This document shows, piece by piece, positions 5,828 to 37,203 of a DNA stretch of 64,000 nucleotides (position 1 is the first letter of the stretch; each line of letters opens with the position of its first letter). The stretch comes from a virus (taxonomy: Duplodnaviria; Heunggongvirae; Uroviricota; Caudoviricetes). Location: the IMG/VR virus record IMGVR_UViG_2718217807_000001; one strand, given 5' to 3'. The position numbers and the translations under genes were made by a program. Below the pieces are notes generated by a model. It did no database searches. It was not told the DNA's origin and was given only the letters and a program-made list of their open reading frames with translations.

Positions 5828-6195
5828 GCACGTCAACCATCGAGGCGCTGGCCAGCGCCTGGGCAAGGATTGCCGAGGAAGCGGAATTCCCCGCTGACTA
5901 CGAGGGGACTGCCACACCACAAGCGCATCGGGCTAGCGAAGCTATTCAGGAGCAGATTCGGGAGCGCATCGTCGCCACCAACGACATGCGGCTGTTCAGC
6001 CTGCTGCACCTGCTGGGTCAGGCGTCGCTGCGCATGGAGCAAGCGCTGTGGCCGGAGGATTACGAGCGGATGACGCGCGAGGTTGAGGAAGCCCTGCGGC
6101 AAGCCACCGACGCCAACGCCAGATCGTACACCCACGAAGAAGTGATGCAGGCGATGCAGGAACGCATCGACCGGGCGCGAGACAAGCCATGTTGA
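5824..6195 (+). CDS. Hypothetical protein (transposon cargo)
   Basis: 123-aa acidic, helical ORF. The start overlaps the upstream stop (ATGA). The end overlaps the tnpR start. Confidence 0.4.
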   Translation: MSTSTIEALASAWARIAEEAEFPADYEGTATPQAHRASEAIQEQIRERIVATNDMRLFSLLHLLGQASLRMEQALWPEDYERMTREVEEALRQATDANARSYTHEEVMQAMQERIDRARDKPC

Positions 6196-33180: not shown

Positions 33181-35553
33181 ATGAAAGCATTAATGGTACG
33201 CACTGACTTTTCCCTCGGGGAGTCGGCGTTAAAAGTCGGTTGTGTCGTGCAAGTGGCAAAAGAGCTTGGTTACTCAGCCGTCATTAGCGCTGACACAATG
33301 AACCTGGCATCAATCATCCCGCTGCAGCAATCAGCCGGCGACGACATGGCCGTCGTCTGCGGCGTTCGTCTTATCGTTAGTGATAACCCATTCCATGAAG
33401 GACTGGTGAAGAAAGCAAAAGAATCAGGTGAGGAAGTACCCGTTTGCAAAATGGGTCGCCAGTACAGCTTTACTGCGCTGATCAAAAACAACGAAGGGTA
33501 TAAAGACCTTTGCGAGCTGATGACGCTGGGCAACCGCCGCGAGCAGTTTTACTTTATACCGCGGATCTCATTGAGGCAGCTGATTGAGACATATGCCAAA
33601 GGCAACATCTTACTTCTGACTTCTGACCGTGACAGCATCTTCCACCGGCCTGATTTCGTCAGTATTTTATCCGCCCTACTTTCTACGGGTGGTCGCGACA
33701 ACTTCTATAGCGTCGTGTACCCCATTTCCACGCCTTTGTATGACCAGTTGAACAAGAAGGCAATGAGCGTCGCACAGGCTCTTAAAATCGCTCCTGTGGC
33801 ATTCTATCCTGCATATTACGAAAAGGAAGAGGATGCTGACCTGCGTGACATCGCGCACATGGTTATCAATAACATCAAAACAGATCAGCCTTATCGCTTC
33901 CATATCCCTCACCAACGCGATAACTCAATTCAGGATCGCAAGCATTTGCTGGTTCGCCTGATGGAGTTCGCCAAGCGCATGAACGTCGAGGGCGTCAGTT
34001 CTGCCATGGTTAACGACACTCAGGATGAGATCATCGCGGAGTGCAGCTGGCGATGGCATGAAATGCCGGTGAGTCTTCCAGTAATGGCAGAAGACGAAGG
34101 CGAAAAGCTAACTCGCATGGCAGCTGAAGGTCTGAAACGACGCTTAACGACGCTTGAGTTTGGGTGGAAGCCACCGGCCGAACAGTACCCAATGTATATC
34201 AACCGTCTCCGCTATGAGTTATCTGTGCTGAAGCGCCTGGGTTTCTGCGGTTACTTCCTGATGGTGGAGAACCTGCTTACGTGGGCGCGAGAAGAAGATA
34301 TTCCCGTTGGTCCTGGTCGCGGTTCATCTGCAGGCTCATTGGTTGCATGGGCTATTGGGATCACCAATATTGACCCTCTACGTCATGGATTGCTGTTTGA
34401 GCGTTTCATCAACCCGGAGCGTCTCGACTTACCAGATGCTGATCTGGACTTCAGCCAGGCACAGCGCCAGCGTGTTCTTGAATATCTTGAAGAGCATTAC
34501 GGTGAAGACTATGTCGCCGGCATTCCAAACTTCTCATACCTGGGCATGGCTTCGGCATTGCGTGACACTGCGCGAATTTATGGCGTGTCGTCTGAAGATA
34601 TGGCCGTATCAAAGCAGCTGAAGCCATTCGATGACGAGGGCTTATCTCTCGAAGAAACACGCGAGCAGCTGGGGGCGTTGGACAAATATGCTAAAGCCAA
34701 TCCAGAAGCCTTCGACGCGGCTTGTAAACTCCAGTCACTGATGCGCAGCTTCAGCAAACACGCTGCAGGGGTAATTGTGTCTGGTGTTCCGTTGACAGAA
34801 CGTACACCAGTGGAATTACGCAACGGTGTGCGCTGTATCGCGTTTGACAAACGTTTCTGTGAATCCATGGGGCTTATCAAACTGGACGTGTTAGGGCTGG
34901 CTACGCTCGACCTGCTGGCGCTGGCTAAGCGCTATATCAAAGAGAATGAGGGTGTAGACGTCAACCTCGATGCGATCCCTCTGGACGACAAGCGCGTACT
35001 CGACGGCATGGCGCTGGGCGAAACAACCGGCGTATTCCAGTTCGAGTCTGGCGGCATGAGAAACCTGCTTAAAAATTTGGGAAGCGGCATAAAGCCCATG
35101 TCGTTTGAGATGGCCGTTGCCACGACAGCGCTCTACCGACCTGGCCCGATGCAGTCGGGCATGATGGATACCTACGTCAGTGTTGCGCGTGGCTATGAAG
35201 ACGCTTCGTCGCTTCACCCAAGTCTTGACGATCTGACAAGAGAGACAAACGGCGTTTTGGTCTATCAGGAACAGATCATGAAGGCGTCGCAGATTCTGGC
35301 TGGGTTCTCACTGGCGGAGGCTGACATGGTTAGGAAAGCGATCGGTAAAAAAGACATCGAGAAGATGAAAAAGATCGGTGCTGATTTCTCAGAACGTGCG
35401 CAGCTGGGTTGGCTGGAGGTTCAAACTGATGATGGCCAGACTGTCATTGTTCACCGCGCAGCACTTCACCCATGCACTGACGGCAAAAAGCGAACTGCCA
35501 TCCAGGCGATGGAAGACGATGCCGACATTATTGAATTTGACACCTCAAAATAA
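33181..35553 (+). CDS. dnaE: DNA polymerase III alpha (DnaE-type), N-terminal 790-aa part: PHP, palm, thumb and part of fingers
   Basis: N-terminal PHP-like segment. The ...EADMVRKAIGKK... block aligns with E. coli DnaE ...EADMLRRAMGKK.... The ORF then ends after a 49-aa non-homologous tail. Confidence 0.7.
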   Translation: MKALMVRTDFSLGESALKVGCVVQVAKELGYSAVISADTMNLASIIPLQQSAGDDMAVVCGVRLIVSDNPFHEGLVKKAKESGEEVPVCKMGRQYSFTALIKNNEGYKDLCELMTLGNRREQFYFIPRISLRQLIETYAKGNILLLTSDRDSIFHRPDFVSILSALLSTGGRDNFYSVVYPISTPLYDQLNKKAMSVAQALKIAPVAFYPAYYEKEEDADLRDIAHMVINNIKTDQPYRFHIPHQRDNSIQDRKHLLVRLMEFAKRMNVEGVSSAMVNDTQDEIIAECSWRWHEMPVSLPVMAEDEGEKLTRMAAEGLKRRLTTLEFGWKPPAEQYPMYINRLRYELSVLKRLGFCGYFLMVENLLTWAREEDIPVGPGRGSSAGSLVAWAIGITNIDPLRHGLLFERFINPERLDLPDADLDFSQAQRQRVLEYLEEHYGEDYVAGIPNFSYLGMASALRDTARIYGVSSEDMAVSKQLKPFDDEGLSLEETREQLGALDKYAKANPEAFDAACKLQSLMRSFSKHAAGVIVSGVPLTERTPVELRNGVRCIAFDKRFCESMGLIKLDVLGLATLDLLALAKRYIKENEGVDVNLDAIPLDDKRVLDGMALGETTGVFQFESGGMRNLLKNLGSGIKPMSFEMAVATTALYRPGPMQSGMMDTYVSVARGYEDASSLHPSLDDLTRETNGVLVYQEQIMKASQILAGFSLAEADMVRKAIGKKDIEKMKKIGADFSERAQLGWLEVQTDDGQTVIVHRAALHPCTDGKKRTAIQAMEDDADIIEFDTSK

Positions 35554-35623
35554 TAAGTAACATGTGAAAACAAGTTGTTTTCTAAACACGTAAACAGCTT
35601 GTTTTTCTAACAAAGGAAAACAC

Positions 35624-36784
35624 ATGAAGATCACTAAAATCGTTTCAGAGCGCCCAGGACTCGGTGAGCTGAAAGCTAAAGAAGTATGGGACGCCTTCGA
35701 GAAGTTCGGATCGTATGGTTTTAACAAATCCCACGCAGTGGCGTACACCGCGATCAGCTATCAGTCGATGTATCTGAAGACACATCACCCAGCGGCGTTC
35801 TTTGCGGCCGCATTGACCATTCAAGACGATGAGAAGCATCGCGCAGTGGTTAAAGATGCGCTGGCGCGTGGGGTCATCGTCATGCCGCCCGACATTAACA
35901 TCTCAACTGAGCGTATCGAGATAAAGGAGCTGTCAGACGGCCGCACTGCTCTTTATGCCCCCTTCTCCGCTGTTAAAGGTTGTTCTGAGAAAGGCTGTTT
36001 CGCCATCGTTCGTGCTCGCGAACGTGTCGGCGGAGCTTTCGAGTCCAGAGCGCAATTCAAAGAGGCGATCGAAGCCAGGCTGTGCAATATCCGTGTACAG
36101 GAAGCGCTGGACGCCGTTGGCGCATTTGCCAGTATTGAACCGGGGAGCGAGCCAGCGCTGGCTGAGTCACGACGCAAGGCTCAATCTGAGCTGATGGGTA
36201 GTCTTATTATCGACGCTGTGAAAATTGACCGTCCGTTCGAGATGAACCCGAAGCGCCAGGCGGAAGTTTCTATGCTGATGGAAGAGCTTCGCAGAGAGGT
36301 TGGTATAGAGGAAGATCTAGTGACTCCGCACATCGGCGTCTCTCCTAAATTGATGATTATCCTCGACACGGCCAATGGCAACGATATCAGGACGGGGATC
36401 TTCATGGAGAACGGCTACGACGACCTGAAGGCCAAGATGCTTGTTAACGGTGATCTGCGTATGAGCGAGGTGTATGTCACCGGCGTCATCAAGCAGGACA
36501 AAAAGCTACCGCTGTCCCGCGATGCAGAAAACACCTATATCGAGTTCATGAAGAAAGAGTTGGAGCTGATCAAGCCAACCTACGTCCTGACGTGTGGCCG
36601 AATCTCGTCAGCGCTTTTTAACGACAAAACGAAACCGACGGATCTGGTCGGGCGTAAAGAGTATTTCTCAGCAATGGATTTGACCGTCTTCTACGGGTTT
36701 AATCCGGGCATTCTTCACTTCCGCCCAGAGGAAGGTGAAAAGCTGGAGCTGATTATGGAAGACATCAAAGAGGCATTAGCATGA
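35624..36784 (+). CDS. dnaE: DNA polymerase III alpha (DnaE-type), C-terminal 386-aa part
   Basis: FGSYGFNKSHAVAYTAISYQSMYLKTHHPAAFFAAALT aligns with E. coli DnaE [35 protein letters not shown]. The ORF has its own AAAGGAAAACACATG initiation region. Confidence 0.7.
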   Translation: MKITKIVSERPGLGELKAKEVWDAFEKFGSYGFNKSHAVAYTAISYQSMYLKTHHPAAFFAAALTIQDDEKHRAVVKDALARGVIVMPPDINISTERIEIKELSDGRTALYAPFSAVKGCSEKGCFAIVRARERVGGAFESRAQFKEAIEARLCNIRVQEALDAVGAFASIEPGSEPALAESRRKAQSELMGSLIIDAVKIDRPFEMNPKRQAEVSMLMEELRREVGIEEDLVTPHIGVSPKLMIILDTANGNDIRTGIFMENGYDDLKAKMLVNGDLRMSEVYVTGVIKQDKKLPLSRDAENTYIEFMKKELELIKPTYVLTCGRISSALFNDKTKPTDLVGRKEYFSAMDLTVFYGFNPGILHFRPEEGEKLELIMEDIKEALA

Positions 36785-37203
36785 CAGAAGTTACCGTGTC
36801 ACAAGAGTTTATCGACAAGGCCAGCGTTGCTGTAAACAAATCTGCTTTCTGGGAGATAGCCGATAGCCCTGTCACTGTTCGCCTCGCGATGAAAGTTGCC
36901 GTTCTTGGCGGCGAACGCGCGAATAAGGCGGCACGTAGTTGCGCCAGAGTGATGTTGAAACGGGTAAATAACTCCGAGGTGCGCGGGCGTCTAGTCAAAC
37001 TGGCAAAAGCAACGGATGTCGAGAAGGAGCTGACTGAGTTCGAAGCATTCAGGGATTCTCTAATCATGAAGGTGGCGAGAGAGTTTATGGAAGTCGAAAA
37101 GTCCAACAGCGTGAGAGACTATCGCAAGCATCGCGCACAGCGGATAATGACCGCATGCAAGGATGCAGGTCAAAATTCAAATGCAGGGAGTATTGCTGCA
37201 TAA
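36781..37203 (+). CDS. Hypothetical protein
   Basis: 140 aa. Start overlaps the dnaE-C stop. Confidence 0.45.
   Translation: MTEVTVSQEFIDKASVAVNKSAFWEIADSPVTVRLAMKVAVLGGERANKAARSCARVMLKRVNNSEVRGRLVKLAKATDVEKELTEFEAFRDSLIMKVAREFMEVEKSNSVRDYRKHRAQRIMTACKDAGQNSNAGSIAA

What the first reader, a model, noticed from the sequence alone, without database searches (positions are those of the whole stretch)
33181..36784. DnaE-type polymerase encoded as two separate ORFs split inside the fingers region, with a normal intergenic initiation signal between them
Part 1 ends just after the conserved EADMVRKAIGKK block and then has a 49-aa unique tail. Part 2 starts 70 nt later with its own AAAGGAAAACACATG initiation region and a 16-aa leader. 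It then resumes at the conserved FGSYGFNKSHAVAY block. The two parts are in different frames. No split-intein signatures (Cys-start N-intein, HN-ending C-intein) are present. This is either a true two-subunit polymerase, a frameshift or pseudogene, or programmed recoding.
Basis: seen in the sequence. Interest (0 to 1): 0.55.

Follow-up and report, generated by a model that had tools for sequence, protein, structure and literature searches.

The report
Split polymerase joined by intein relic
This Klebsiella phage-plasmid encodes its DnaE-type DNA polymerase as two conserved, separately translated proteins, and the extra peptides at the break are leftover pieces of a split intein that cannot splice but probably still hold the two halves together.

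Summary
Part 1 is 33181-35553 (790 aa) and part 2 is 35624-36784 (386 aa). They lie in different frames, 70 nt apart.

It is not an error or a pseudogene. 29 Klebsiella plasmids at about 81% DNA identity keep the same two ORFs without an indel. dN/dS is 0.03 for the cores, 0.07 for the tail and 0.13 for the leader.

Nothing of the polymerase is missing. The break carries an insertion: a 48-aa tail on part 1 and a 12-aa leader on part 2.

In distant relatives a free-standing HNH homing endonuclease gene sits exactly between the halves. One relative keeps a deleted remnant of that gene. SSU5 itself carries the insertion in-frame in a single ORF. Many relatives lack the insertion altogether.

A profile of the insertion finds only DnaE split inteins at the top of the PDB (E = 1e-6). 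It matches intein residues about 55-107, around the canonical split site. An AlphaFold model agrees.

Intein blocks A, F and G and the nucleophiles are absent, so canonical splicing is excluded.

Best reading: a two-subunit polymerase made by a mobile endonuclease-plus-intein-fragment cassette. The endonuclease has since been lost. The intein relic probably serves as a non-covalent docking module; this last step is inferred, not tested.

The parts
33181..35553 (+). Part 1 ORF (790 aa + stop): PHP, palm/thumb and the N-terminal two thirds of the fingers of a DnaE-type (family C) polymerase, plus the intein-derived tail
   Evidence: Pfam PHP at aa 6-152, DNA_pol3_alpha at 309-572, DNA_pol3_finger at 575-740. 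dN/dS of the core against K. pneumoniae plasmids is 0.034.
35407..35550 (+). Tail, aa 743-790 (GWLEVQTDDGQTVIVHRAALHPCTDGKKRTAIQAMEDDADIIEFDTSK): relic of the C-terminal half of an N-intein (block B region up to the canonical split site). The TxxH motif is degenerate (AALH). Net charge is -5.
   Evidence: The segment is absent from intact homologues. The tail+leader profile matches DnaE inteins in the PDB with E = 1.2e-6 to 1e-3. hhalign gives 88% probability, P = 3e-6. Genuine N-inteins are retrieved from 1.84e9 proteins. The AF2 model has pLDDT 81-86 in this part, and the top 10 Foldseek hits are Npu/Ssp DnaE inteins. dN/dS is 0.07. Charge.
35551..35556 (+). Tandem stop codons TAA TAA ending part 1
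35554..35623 (+). 70-nt spacer. It occupies the position held in relatives by a free-standing HNH homing endonuclease gene.
   Evidence: The last ~18 nt are shared with HEG-bearing p4727. 52 of 70 nt are identical to the K. pneumoniae plasmids.
35568..35580 (.). Palindrome AAACAAGTTGTTT, copy 1 of an intergenic element that recurs through the phage-plasmid
   Evidence: 17 strand-matches at 9 sites against 1.7 expected. Eight of the nine sites are intergenic, 7-58 nt upstream of + strand gene starts. The copy is conserved in L001/L002.
35592..35604 (.). Palindrome AAACAGCTTGTTT, copy 2 of the same element
   Evidence: As RNA, the two copies can pair with each other (dG -19 kcal/mol, z = -3.5).
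35612..35626 (+). Shine-Dalgarno-like AAAGGAAAA followed by the ATG of part 2
   Evidence: The sequence is conserved in L001, L002 and L004.
35624..35659 (+). Leader, aa 1-12 (MKITKIVSERPG): resembles the first strand of a C-intein (compare MIKIATRKYLG of Npu DnaE-C, recalled from memory, and MQKSRIKTIKYLG in L094). Net charge is +2.
   Evidence: Absent from intact homologues. An MKIxxI... start is conserved in relatives whose part-2 proteins are only 33% identical. The resemblance to IntC is by eye, plus two aligned residues, so it is weak. Charge. dN/dS is 0.13.
35624..36784 (+). Part 2 ORF (386 aa + stop): leader, remainder of the fingers (GYGFNKSH block onward), helix-hairpin-helix domain and a C-terminal degenerate UDG-like domain
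   Evidence: HHH_6 at aa 83-172; UDG at E = 0.006, below the Pfam cutoff. The UDG domain is significant in the fused homologue RHEph10 gp048. dN/dS is 0.02-0.03.

Best explanation
The window comes from a Klebsiella oxytoca SSU5-like phage-plasmid of about 111 kb. Its DnaE-type replicative polymerase is a real two-polypeptide enzyme. A mobile cassette entered a surface loop of the fingers domain, at about E. coli alpha residue 735. The cassette consists of the last ~46 residues of an N-intein, a free-standing HNH homing endonuclease gene, and the first ~10 residues of a C-intein. It still exists complete in relatives. It spreads among polymerases that are otherwise continuous. In the lineage of this window the endonuclease gene has been lost and replaced by a 70-nt spacer. 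The spacer carries two copies of the element's usual intergenic palindrome and a ribosome-binding site, so part 2 is expressed as an ordinary gene. The intein fragments remain as a 48-aa acidic tail on part 1 and a 12-aa basic leader on part 2. Blocks A, F and G, the first-residue nucleophile, the terminal Asn and the +1 nucleophile are all absent. Canonical protein splicing therefore cannot occur. The inferred mechanism is that the halves re-associate without a covalent bond. They would be held together by the interrupted fingers fold and by the intein relic, which keeps the part of a split intein that mediates fragment recognition. The split, its conservation, the endonuclease link and the intein homology are shown. 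The docking role and the absence of ligation are inferred.
For: Identity of the element: 100% DNA match to K. oxytoca plasmids.

Split conserved and under selection: 29 records cover the whole 3604 nt in one piece of equal length at about 81% identity. They are annotated as two CDS. dN/dS is 0.034 (core), 0.07 (tail), 0.13 (leader) and 0.02-0.03 (part 2), with dS of 1.2-2.4. Split C-halves of 385-417 aa starting MKI... occur down to 33% identity.

Insertion, not deletion.

Endonuclease between the halves: p4727, Acinetobacter brisouii L011, L012 and L013, and L015, L021, L036 and L040. Two HNH architectures occur at the site. L041 has an internally deleted remnant.

Other states of the site: the relic is contiguous in-frame in SSU5, Cyrano and others. 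There is no insertion in RHEph10 and at least 20 other loci.

Mobility: carriers are interspersed with non-carriers in a tree of the C-terminal region. L040's part 1 is about 61% identical (part 2 about 50%) to insertion-free RHEph10 gp048, yet L040 carries tail + HEG + leader. Identity falls to 47-53% within ~150 nt of the junction against an 80% background.

Intein homology: hhalign 87.8%, P = 3.3e-6. The top 14 PDB sequence hits are all DnaE inteins, E = 1.2e-6 to 1e-3, over intein residues ~55-107. The tails-only profile has the same top hit. Genuine N-intein ends (P0253, P0255, P0258, P0261) are found among only 37 hits in 1.84e9 proteins and align without gaps. P0253's locus is a true split intein with a HEG and a C-intein beginning MQKSRIKTIKYLG. 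In the AF2 model (overall mean pLDDT 77.9, tail part 81-86), the top 10 Foldseek hits are Npu/Ssp DnaE inteins at rmsd 1.7-2.8 A.

Charge complementarity: the tail end is negative in 13 of 13 loci and the leader start positive in 11 of 13. This is the polarity described for split-intein capture (PMC11766414).

Precedent: tails essential for a HEG-fragmented RNR (PMC3045599).
Against: No experiment or structure of the complex supports docking. The AF2 model is weakest (pLDDT 57) exactly where tail and leader meet.

The leader's resemblance to a C-intein start rests on about 10 residues judged by eye.

The intein match covers only ~45 residues. The AF2 alignment contained four genuine intein fragments, so the structural agreement is not fully independent of the sequence evidence.

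No relative with a complete intein at this exact site was found.

In the Aeh1 precedent the tails were not needed for heterodimer formation but for a later assembly step. 'Docking' may therefore be too simple a description.

Contiguous-relic alleles show that the relic is tolerated as a plain insertion, so it could have a function unrelated to assembly.
Confidence: 0.68

Rival explanations
1. The split is real and endonuclease-driven, but the tail and leader do not help assembly. The two fingers fragments would associate through their own hydrophobic interface. The relic would be retained for another reason, such as folding, binding another replisome protein, or simple constraint as a tolerated surface insertion.
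For: SSU5, Cyrano and other phages keep the same ~55-aa segment in-frame in a continuous polymerase, so it exists without any need for docking. In Aeh1 NrdA the tails were not required for heterodimer formation. The AF2 model gives low confidence for the tail-leader contact.
Against: Tail and leader are under purifying selection in the HEG-free split lineage (dN/dS 0.07 and 0.13). Their opposite charges are conserved across 13 divergent loci. The retained intein parts are those flanking the fragment-association site.
Confidence: 0.17
2. The insertion is an unrelated small beta-rich domain that the polymerase acquired first, and endonucleases later invaded it. Its resemblance to inteins would be convergent, a common LEDG beta-hairpin.
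For: Pfam finds no HINT family in the tail alone, only a sub-threshold SH3-like match. Contiguous forms are common in the enterobacterial clade. The TxxH motif is not conserved. No full intein was found at this site.
Against: Unbiased searches rank DnaE inteins first, and exclusively so, by sequence (14 of 14 top hits) and by predicted structure (top 10). Genuine N-intein ends align without gaps at about 36% identity, including the shared F.C(S/T)DG motif. The homology stops at the canonical intein split site, which is exactly where the gene is broken and where the HEG sits. The whole tail-HEG-leader unit is patchy across the polymerase tree.
Confidence: 0.1
3. Programmed recoding re-joins the two ORFs: ribosomes bypass the 70-nt gap, as in T4 gene 60, or shift frame, and make one polypeptide.
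For: In the window the last sense codon of part 1 is AAA (35549-51), followed by TAA. AAA codons in frame with part 2 lie at 35612-14 and 35618-20. The spacer RNA folds better than shuffles (z = -3.5).
Against: AAA is expected by chance in an A-rich ribosome-binding site. Klebsiella sp. PO552 ends part 1 with CAT and, by my reading of its sequence, has no matching in-frame codon upstream of part 2. Relatives have 650-780 nt with a whole gene between the halves. Every relative keeps an SD plus an MKI start. The hairpin-forming sequences are copies of a palindrome found upstream of many other genes. Rfam finds nothing.
Confidence: 0.02
4. Sequencing or assembly error, or a recently inactivated pseudogene.
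For: Some close relatives (SSU5, Cyrano) have one continuous ORF.
Against: Three independent K. oxytoca assemblies have identical sequence. 29 records keep the same two ORFs at 81% identity with no indel. dN/dS is 0.02-0.13 with saturated dS. Clusters of split C-halves contain hundreds to more than a thousand member sequences. Continuous relatives differ by the whole stop-spacer-start segment, not by one indel.
Confidence: 0.01

Closest known systems
Aeromonas phage Aeh1 NrdA-a / mobE / NrdA-b: a ribonucleotide reductase fragmented by a free-standing HNH endonuclease and reassembled with the help of terminal tails (Friedrich 2007; Crona et al. 2010, PMC3045599)
   Same: An essential replication-related enzyme is cut inside a folded domain by a free-standing HNH endonuclease gene. 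The two products carry a C-terminal and an N-terminal tail, of opposite charge, that are absent from intact homologues. There is no splicing, and the halves are translated independently. The authors themselves proposed that such tails might be remnants of a degenerate intein.
   Different: Here the host protein is a family C polymerase. The tails can be traced by sequence and predicted structure to a DnaE-type split intein. The cassette is found in many divergent polymerases and with two endonuclease architectures. In this window the endonuclease gene is gone while the split persists. The charge polarity is reversed (acidic C-terminal tail, basic N-terminal leader). The function of the tails is untested here.
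[quoted passage not shown] 2009, PMC2677866)
   Same: The gene order is the same: host N-part + IntN, then HEG, then IntC + host C-part. The setting is phage, and DnaE is among the hosts. True examples occur in this same polymerase family at other sites: L009 has two split inteins, and L094 has one at the FNK|SH site.
   Different: Fractured genes carry complete split inteins with all catalytic residues and are presumed to trans-splice. Here only the endonuclease-proximal pieces remain (about 46 + 10 aa), without blocks A, F and G or any nucleophile, so ligation is excluded.
Cyanobacterial split DnaE intein (Ssp/Npu DnaE-n and DnaE-c)
   Same: The host protein is the same (Pol III alpha). The break is in the same fingers region, about 23 residues upstream of the cyanobacterial FAEY|CFNKSH site (site sequence recalled from memory). 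These inteins are the best sequence and structure matches of the relic.
   Different: The cyanobacterial genes lie at separate loci, carry full inteins and trans-splice to one chain. Here the genes are adjacent, the insertion site differs, and the intein is truncated and catalytically dead.
T4 gp39/gp60 topoisomerase with mobA, and split gp43 polymerases of some T4-like Aeromonas phages (from my own knowledge and the discussion in PMC3045599)
   Same: Phage replication enzymes work as non-covalent assemblies of fragments created next to a homing endonuclease gene.
   Different: No intein-derived tails have been shown there. T4 gene 60 also uses translational bypass, for which there is no support here.

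Membership tests
Split intein (trans-splicing HINT domain) | Block A with a Cys/Ser (or Ala) first residue at the N-extein/intein junction | tested here: not met
   The sequence immediately upstream of the tail is polymerase (extein) up to ...FSERAQL. There are no ~55 N-terminal intein residues, and no conserved C/S/T at the boundary in 16 relatives.
Split intein (trans-splicing HINT domain) | Block B region (TxxH) and the following strands of the N-intein | tested here: inconclusive
   The region is homologous. The TxxH motif is degenerate: AALH in the window, TSMH in PO552, and no His at that position in p4727.
Split intein (trans-splicing HINT domain) | Blocks F and G ending in (H)N, followed by a Cys/Ser/Thr +1 residue | tested here: not met
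   The leader is only ~12 aa (MKITKIVSERPG) and runs straight into extein (LGELKAKEVW). There is no HN and no conserved nucleophile. The upstream reading frame is closed 10 codons before the ATG.
Split intein (trans-splicing HINT domain) | Ligation of the exteins into one polypeptide | not testable with these tools
   Needs mass spectrometry or western blotting of the expressed proteins.
Fractured gene / genes-in-pieces made by a free-standing homing endonuclease | A host gene that is continuous in relatives is broken at one point | tested here: met
   RHEph10 gp048 and at least 20 other loci are continuous without the insertion. SSU5 and others are continuous with it.
Fractured gene / genes-in-pieces made by a free-standing homing endonuclease | A free-standing homing endonuclease gene lies between the two pieces | tested here: not met
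   Not met in the window: the spacer is 70 nt and there is no HEG homologue anywhere in the 64 kb. Met in relatives at the same site: L004, L011, L012, L013, L015, L021, L036, L040. L041 has a remnant.
Fractured gene / genes-in-pieces made by a free-standing homing endonuclease | Non-host tails at the new C- and N-termini (Aeh1 NrdA type) | tested here: met
   A 48-aa tail and a 12-aa leader are absent from insertion-free homologues and oppositely charged.
Fractured gene / genes-in-pieces made by a free-standing homing endonuclease | Both pieces retained as functional genes | tested here: met
   dN/dS is 0.02-0.13 in all segments, and there are no indels in 29 plasmids. Activity itself was not tested.
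Fractured gene / genes-in-pieces made by a free-standing homing endonuclease | Tails needed for assembly or activity | not testable with these tools
   Needs deletion mutants and biochemistry, as in PMC3045599.
DnaE-type family C DNA polymerase (Pol III alpha) | PHP, palm (DNA_pol3_alpha), fingers and HhH domains in order | tested here: met
   Pfam matches are above the curated cutoffs across the two ORFs. The junction region aligns colinearly to Taq and E. coli alpha.
DnaE-type family C DNA polymerase (Pol III alpha) | C-terminal OB fold and tau-binding domain of cellular DnaE | tested here: not met
   No tRNA_anti-codon (OB) match. The C-terminus is instead a UDG-like domain, weak here (E = 0.006) and significant in RHEph10 (E = 1.2e-9).
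Programmed translational bypass (T4 gene 60 type) | Matched take-off and landing codons and a conserved short coding gap | tested here: not met
   An AAA/AAA match exists in the window only. By my reading of the sequence it is not matched in PO552. The gap is 650-780 nt with a gene in many relatives.

The most novel reading that the evidence does not exclude
A natural, catalytically dead, minimal split-intein fragment pair (about 46 + 10 residues, the parts next to the split site) travels together with HNH homing endonuclease genes as a self-contained 'gene-splitting cassette'. It breaks DnaE polymerases in two and at the same time supplies the non-covalent clasp that keeps them working. The clasp outlives the endonuclease. 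This would be the first traceable case of the route proposed by Crona et al. (2010), in which the assembly tails of fragmented genes are intein remnants. It would also show that intein fragment recognition can be kept and selected without splicing.
Probability: 0.5. Interest if true: 0.78.

Novelty: new variant of a known kind. Interest (0 to 1): 0.66.

Why it matters
Genes broken by homing endonucleases, and split inteins, are both known. How a broken gene stays functional without splicing has been worked out for only one enzyme, and the origin of its assembly tails was left open.

Here the tails can be traced to a specific part of a DnaE-type split intein. Public genomes hold a full series of states: empty site, in-frame relic, relic split by an endonuclease gene, decaying endonuclease gene, and endonuclease gene lost with the split kept. 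This makes the question directly testable with a handful of constructs.

If the relic does clasp the halves, it is also a very small natural heterodimerisation pair derived from an intein, which may be useful in protein engineering.

It also corrects an annotation. In these clinically common Klebsiella and E. coli phage-plasmids, the second ORF is often named 'uracil-DNA glycosylase' or 'hypothetical protein', but it is the C-terminal subunit of the replicative polymerase.

Tried and rejected
1. Sequencing error or pseudogene: rejected by conservation and dN/dS.

2. Group I intron or another known RNA in the spacer: Rfam found nothing at E <= 1.

3. Sigma-70 promoter or intrinsic terminator in the spacer: none on the + strand.

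4. Translational bypass: formally possible in the window only, and not conserved.

5. Short target-site-like duplication (FSERAQLG versus VSERPGLG at the two ends): 14 of 24 nt identical by my own count on the sequence. This is not more than suggestive, and it is not seen in distant relatives. Dropped.

6. One protein search was wasted. The search for homologous proteins lists only proteins up to about 1.75 times the query length. Fused forms were therefore invisible, and one search returned only fragments. The survey of fused versus split forms was done on DNA loci instead.

7. MAFFT misplaced the tails whenever long flanks or leader-only rows were included (A1, A4, A5). Those alignments were not used for any inference.

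8. The first AF2 run with 8 rows gave pLDDT 54.7 and was not used for a fold search.

9. Pfam on the tail alone gave only a sub-threshold Myosin_N SH3-like match.

10. Search for a complete intein at this exact site among 80 viral loci and 1.84e9 representative proteins: none found.

11. Literature: no paper combines SSU5 with inteins, and no paper was found on natural truncated intein relics as assembly tails. The library lacks most subscription journals.

Full report
**What is in the window**

ORF 33181-35553 (790 aa) and ORF 35624-36784 (386 aa) lie on the + strand in different frames. Between them are TAA TAA and a 70-nt spacer that ends in AAAGGAAAACAC-ATG. Pfam places PHP, DNA_pol3_alpha and DNA_pol3_finger in the first ORF. 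It places HHH_6 and a weak UDG-like match in the second. The 3.6-kb stretch is 100% identical to three Klebsiella oxytoca plasmids of about 111-118 kb. Its neighbours in related plasmids are CobT-like and CobS-like genes upstream and a 5'-3' exonuclease gene downstream; more distant relatives also carry gp32-like and RecA-like genes nearby. This is the SSU5-type phage-plasmid replication module.

**Not an error, not a pseudogene**

29 plasmid records match the whole 3604 nt as one ungapped piece of the same length at about 81% identity. They are annotated with the same two CDS. A more distant plasmid, Klebsiella sp. PO552 p2, has the same layout with an 84-nt spacer.

Against the K. pneumoniae versions, synonymous sites are saturated (dS 1.2-2.4). 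dN/dS by segment:

| Segment | dN/dS |
|---|---|
| Part 1 core | 0.034 |
| Tail | 0.07 |
| Leader | 0.13 |
| Part 2, including the UDG-like domain | 0.02-0.03 |

Split C-terminal halves of 385-417 aa that begin MKI... are found down to 33% identity, for example in Acinetobacter. Some clusters hold hundreds to more than a thousand member sequences.

**An insertion, not a gap**

I aligned the two ORFs with continuous homologues such as Rhizobium phage RHEph10 gp048 (1137 aa, same gene neighbourhood). Part 1 follows the polymerase up to ...FSERAQL. Part 2 resumes at GLGELKAKEVW.... I then removed the intervening residues in silico. The joined sequence aligns colinearly with Taq alpha 755-875 and E. 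coli alpha 697-817. The break is therefore in the fingers domain at about E. coli residue 735. The extra material is a 48-aa tail (aa 743-790) and a 12-aa leader.

**A homing endonuclease sits at this site in relatives**

In Klebsiella phage vB_KpnS_p4727 a 233-aa ORF lies between the halves. It carries NUMOD4, HNH_3 and HTH domains and starts 3 nt after the stop of part 1. The same arrangement occurs in Acinetobacter brisouii (L011), in L012 and L013, and in viral contigs L015, L021, L036 and L040.

Two endonuclease architectures use the site:
- NUMOD4-HNH_3-HTH
- HTH-NUMOD3-HNH_3

L041 keeps only residues 1-23 and 148-186 of the L011-type protein, so its endonuclease gene is internally deleted. 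The window has no homologue of either endonuclease anywhere in its 64 kb.

The site therefore exists in five states:

| State | Examples |
|---|---|
| No insertion | RHEph10 and at least 20 other loci |
| Insertion in-frame in one ORF | SSU5 SSU5_052, Cyrano, ST13-OXA48phi12.3, pJN2-26, CMS-2020a, PhiR41_1, L006, L016 |
| Split with an endonuclease gene | p4727, L011, L012, L013, L015, L021, L036, L040 |
| Split with a decayed endonuclease gene | L041 |
| Split with a short spacer | window, L001-L003, L014 |

**The cassette behaves as a mobile unit**

In a neighbour-joining tree of the region downstream of FNKSH, carriers of the insertion are scattered among non-carriers. L040 pairs with L044, L036 with L028, L021 with L022, L012 with L039, and L011/L041 with L033/L038. 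L040's part 1 is about 61% identical (part 2 about 50%) to insertion-free RHEph10 gp048, yet L040 carries tail, endonuclease gene and leader.

Between p4727 and the continuous Cyrano or SSU5 genes, nucleotide identity is about 80% overall. It drops to 47-53% within about 150 nt of the junction. In Cyrano it rises to 95-97% just upstream of that. This is a mosaic pattern centred on the insertion point.

**The tail and leader are intein fragments**

By eye, the tail resembled the block B region of inteins, and the leader resembled the start of a C-intein. I tested this in five ways.

1. A profile-profile comparison of 19 insertion sequences with five split inteins gave 87.8% probability and P = 3.3e-6 over 35 columns. 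Two of the five inteins came from locus L009.
2. An HMM of the 19 sequences was searched against all 177,635 distinct PDB sequences. The top 14 hits were DnaE inteins and nothing else (7QIL 1.2e-6, Npu 2KEQ 3.9e-6, Ssp 1ZD7 3.2e-5). The match covers intein residues about 55-107, that is, from block B through the canonical split site into the first residues of the C-intein.
3. A tails-only profile of 7 sequences has the same top hit at E = 0.0086.
4. The tails-only profile was searched against 1.84 billion representative proteins and found only 37 proteins. Most are C-terminal ends of part-1-like DnaE pieces. Four are genuine N-intein ends with a TxxH motif (P0253, P0255, P0258, P0261). They align with the relics without gaps and share the F.C(S/T)DG motif. 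P0253's locus is a true fractured DnaE at the FNK|SH site, with a LAGLIDADG gene and a C-intein MQKSRIKTIKYLGKQ...SN|SH.
5. An AlphaFold2 model of the in-frame relic was built with a 33-row alignment. Mean pLDDT is 77.9 overall and 81-86 in the tail part. The fold is four strands and a helix. Foldseek against the PDB returns Npu and Ssp DnaE inteins as its top ten hits, at rmsd 1.7-2.8 A over 38-46 residues.

Two caveats apply. The AF2 alignment contained four genuine intein fragments. The Foldseek E-values are modest (0.009 and above) for so short a model.

**What is missing from the intein**

Upstream of the tail the sequence is polymerase. There is no block A and no first-residue nucleophile. 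The leader runs into polymerase after 12 residues. There are no blocks F or G, no terminal Asn and no +1 Cys/Ser/Thr. No nucleophile is conserved at either boundary in 16 relatives. Canonical protein splicing is therefore excluded.

**How it most likely works**

Shown:
- There are two independently initiated ORFs, both under selection.
- The intein-derived tail and leader are also under selection.

Inferred:
- The products assemble without a covalent link.
- The retained intein pieces are those next to the split site.
- The last 20 residues of the tail are net negative in 13 of 13 loci. The first 8 residues of the leader are net positive in 11 of 13.
- This is the polarity described for the initial 'capture' step of split-intein association.

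The only worked-out precedent is the Aeh1 ribonucleotide reductase. There, tails created with the mobE insertion are essential for activity. The authors speculated that they might be remnants of a degenerate intein.

A plausible origin follows the same authors' transposition model. An endonuclease gene moved out of a true split intein, such as the FNK|SH-site one 23 residues downstream. It took only the adjoining intein-coding DNA with it. This is inference.

**The spacer**

The spacer holds two copies of the palindrome AAACAnnTTGTTT. This motif gives 17 strand-matches at 9 sites in the window, against 1.7 expected. Eight of the nine sites lie between genes, 7-58 nt upstream of + strand starts. 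Both copies are kept in the 81%-identical plasmids while the bases between them changed. Part 2 therefore carries the same upstream element as other independent genes of the phage-plasmid. As RNA, the two copies can pair and enclose the start region (dG -19 kcal/mol, z = -3.5). I did not resolve what the motif does.

**Rivals**

| Rival | Confidence | Main basis |
|---|---|---|
| Relic present but irrelevant to assembly | 0.17 | for; against |
| Convergent, non-intein domain | 0.10 | for; against |
| Translational bypass | 0.02 | AAA/AAA match in the window only |
| Error or pseudogene | 0.01 | Refuted |

**Comparison and novelty**

The system works like the Aeh1 NrdA genes-in-pieces case. It is descended from the 'fractured gene' kind of split intein. 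It fails the defining tests of a split intein because it lacks the catalytic blocks. In this window it also lacks the endonuclease gene. I found no paper linking SSU5-type polymerases to inteins, and none describing truncated intein relics as assembly tails. The library is incomplete. I rate it a new variant of a known kind.

**Confidence by step**

| Step | Confidence |
|---|---|
| Real, selected two-gene polymerase | about 0.95 |
| Endonuclease-linked origin | about 0.9 |
| Intein origin of the tail | about 0.85 |
| Non-covalent clasp function | about 0.55-0.6 |

Noticed in passing
window 12558, 13891, 14727, 35568, 35592, 44218, 45607, 60677, 62391 (13-nt sites): The palindrome AAACAnnTTGTTT, often preceded by CATAAG(A), recurs at 9 sites (17 strand-matches against 1.7 expected). 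Eight of the nine sites are intergenic, 7-58 nt upstream of + strand gene starts; 13891 lies 83 nt upstream of a start, inside a 108-aa ORF. It is probably a promoter, operator or RNA-level element specific to the phage-plasmid. Its function is unknown.
   Followed up: partly
window 36314-36781 (aa ~231-386 of part 2): The C-terminus of the polymerase is a UDG-like domain in place of the OB and tau-binding domains of cellular DnaE. It is below the Pfam cutoff here (E = 0.006) but significant in RHEph10 (1.2e-9). By eye, the Cys-rich segment seen in distant relatives (for example CEDCSLRG in P0035) is lost in the Klebsiella proteins, which suggests a non-catalytic role. Databases often name the whole ORF 'uracil-DNA glycosylase'.
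   Followed up: partly
L009 1634-7650 (Logan SRR24750912, 107-kb contig): A relative encodes the same polymerase in three pieces with two complete split inteins (GPGRGS|CFLAG...VHN|SSGS and FQFE|CLSGE...VVHN|SGGMR). Each has a free-standing ORF between the halves. One is HNH_3. The other is a 339-aa ORF with no Pfam hit, possibly a new endonuclease family. There is no insertion at the window's site.
   Followed up: partly
L011 691-6254 and 9517-11046 (Acinetobacter brisouii GCA_008980645.1): The DnaE homologue is in three pieces: an upstream break with a faint Hint hit and a 308-aa intervening ORF, plus the relic/HEG break. The neighbouring RecA-like gene carries an intein (PF14890). This replication module is heavily colonised by inteins and HEGs.
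   Followed up: no
L094 1-7282 (JGI 3300037067, 121-kb contig): A phage DnaE has several unrelated genes (DNA methylase, RNase_T-like) between its first and second pieces. It also has a cis mini-intein at LRK|C...HN|SIGKK, and a split intein at YAFNK|C...SN|SH with a LAGLIDADG gene between the halves.
   Followed up: partly
P0017, P0024, P0025 (proteins): These are chimeric ORFs in assemblies of p4727-like elements: PHP joined directly to the HhH region, part 2 joined to a gp32-like protein, and the HNH endonuclease joined to the middle of part 2. They look like deletion variants or misassemblies of the replication module.
   Followed up: no
L006 ~5860-5960 (ENA ERZ28620899 scaffold): A run of N with duplicated flanks interrupts the polymerase gene. 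The 544-aa 'protein' P0007 is therefore an artefact of a scaffold gap, not a third kind of split. Two other assemblies break at the same place.
   Followed up: yes
window 35561-35626: CAUGUG (35561-66) can pair with CACAUG (35621-26), which includes the start codon of part 2, closing a structure around the two palindromes (dG -19 kcal/mol, z = -3.5). This may affect translation of part 2.
   Followed up: no
window 36781-37203: The ORF downstream of part 2 overlaps its stop codon (ATGA). It is conserved in the related plasmids as a 140-aa hypothetical protein, which suggests translational coupling within the replication operon.
   Followed up: no
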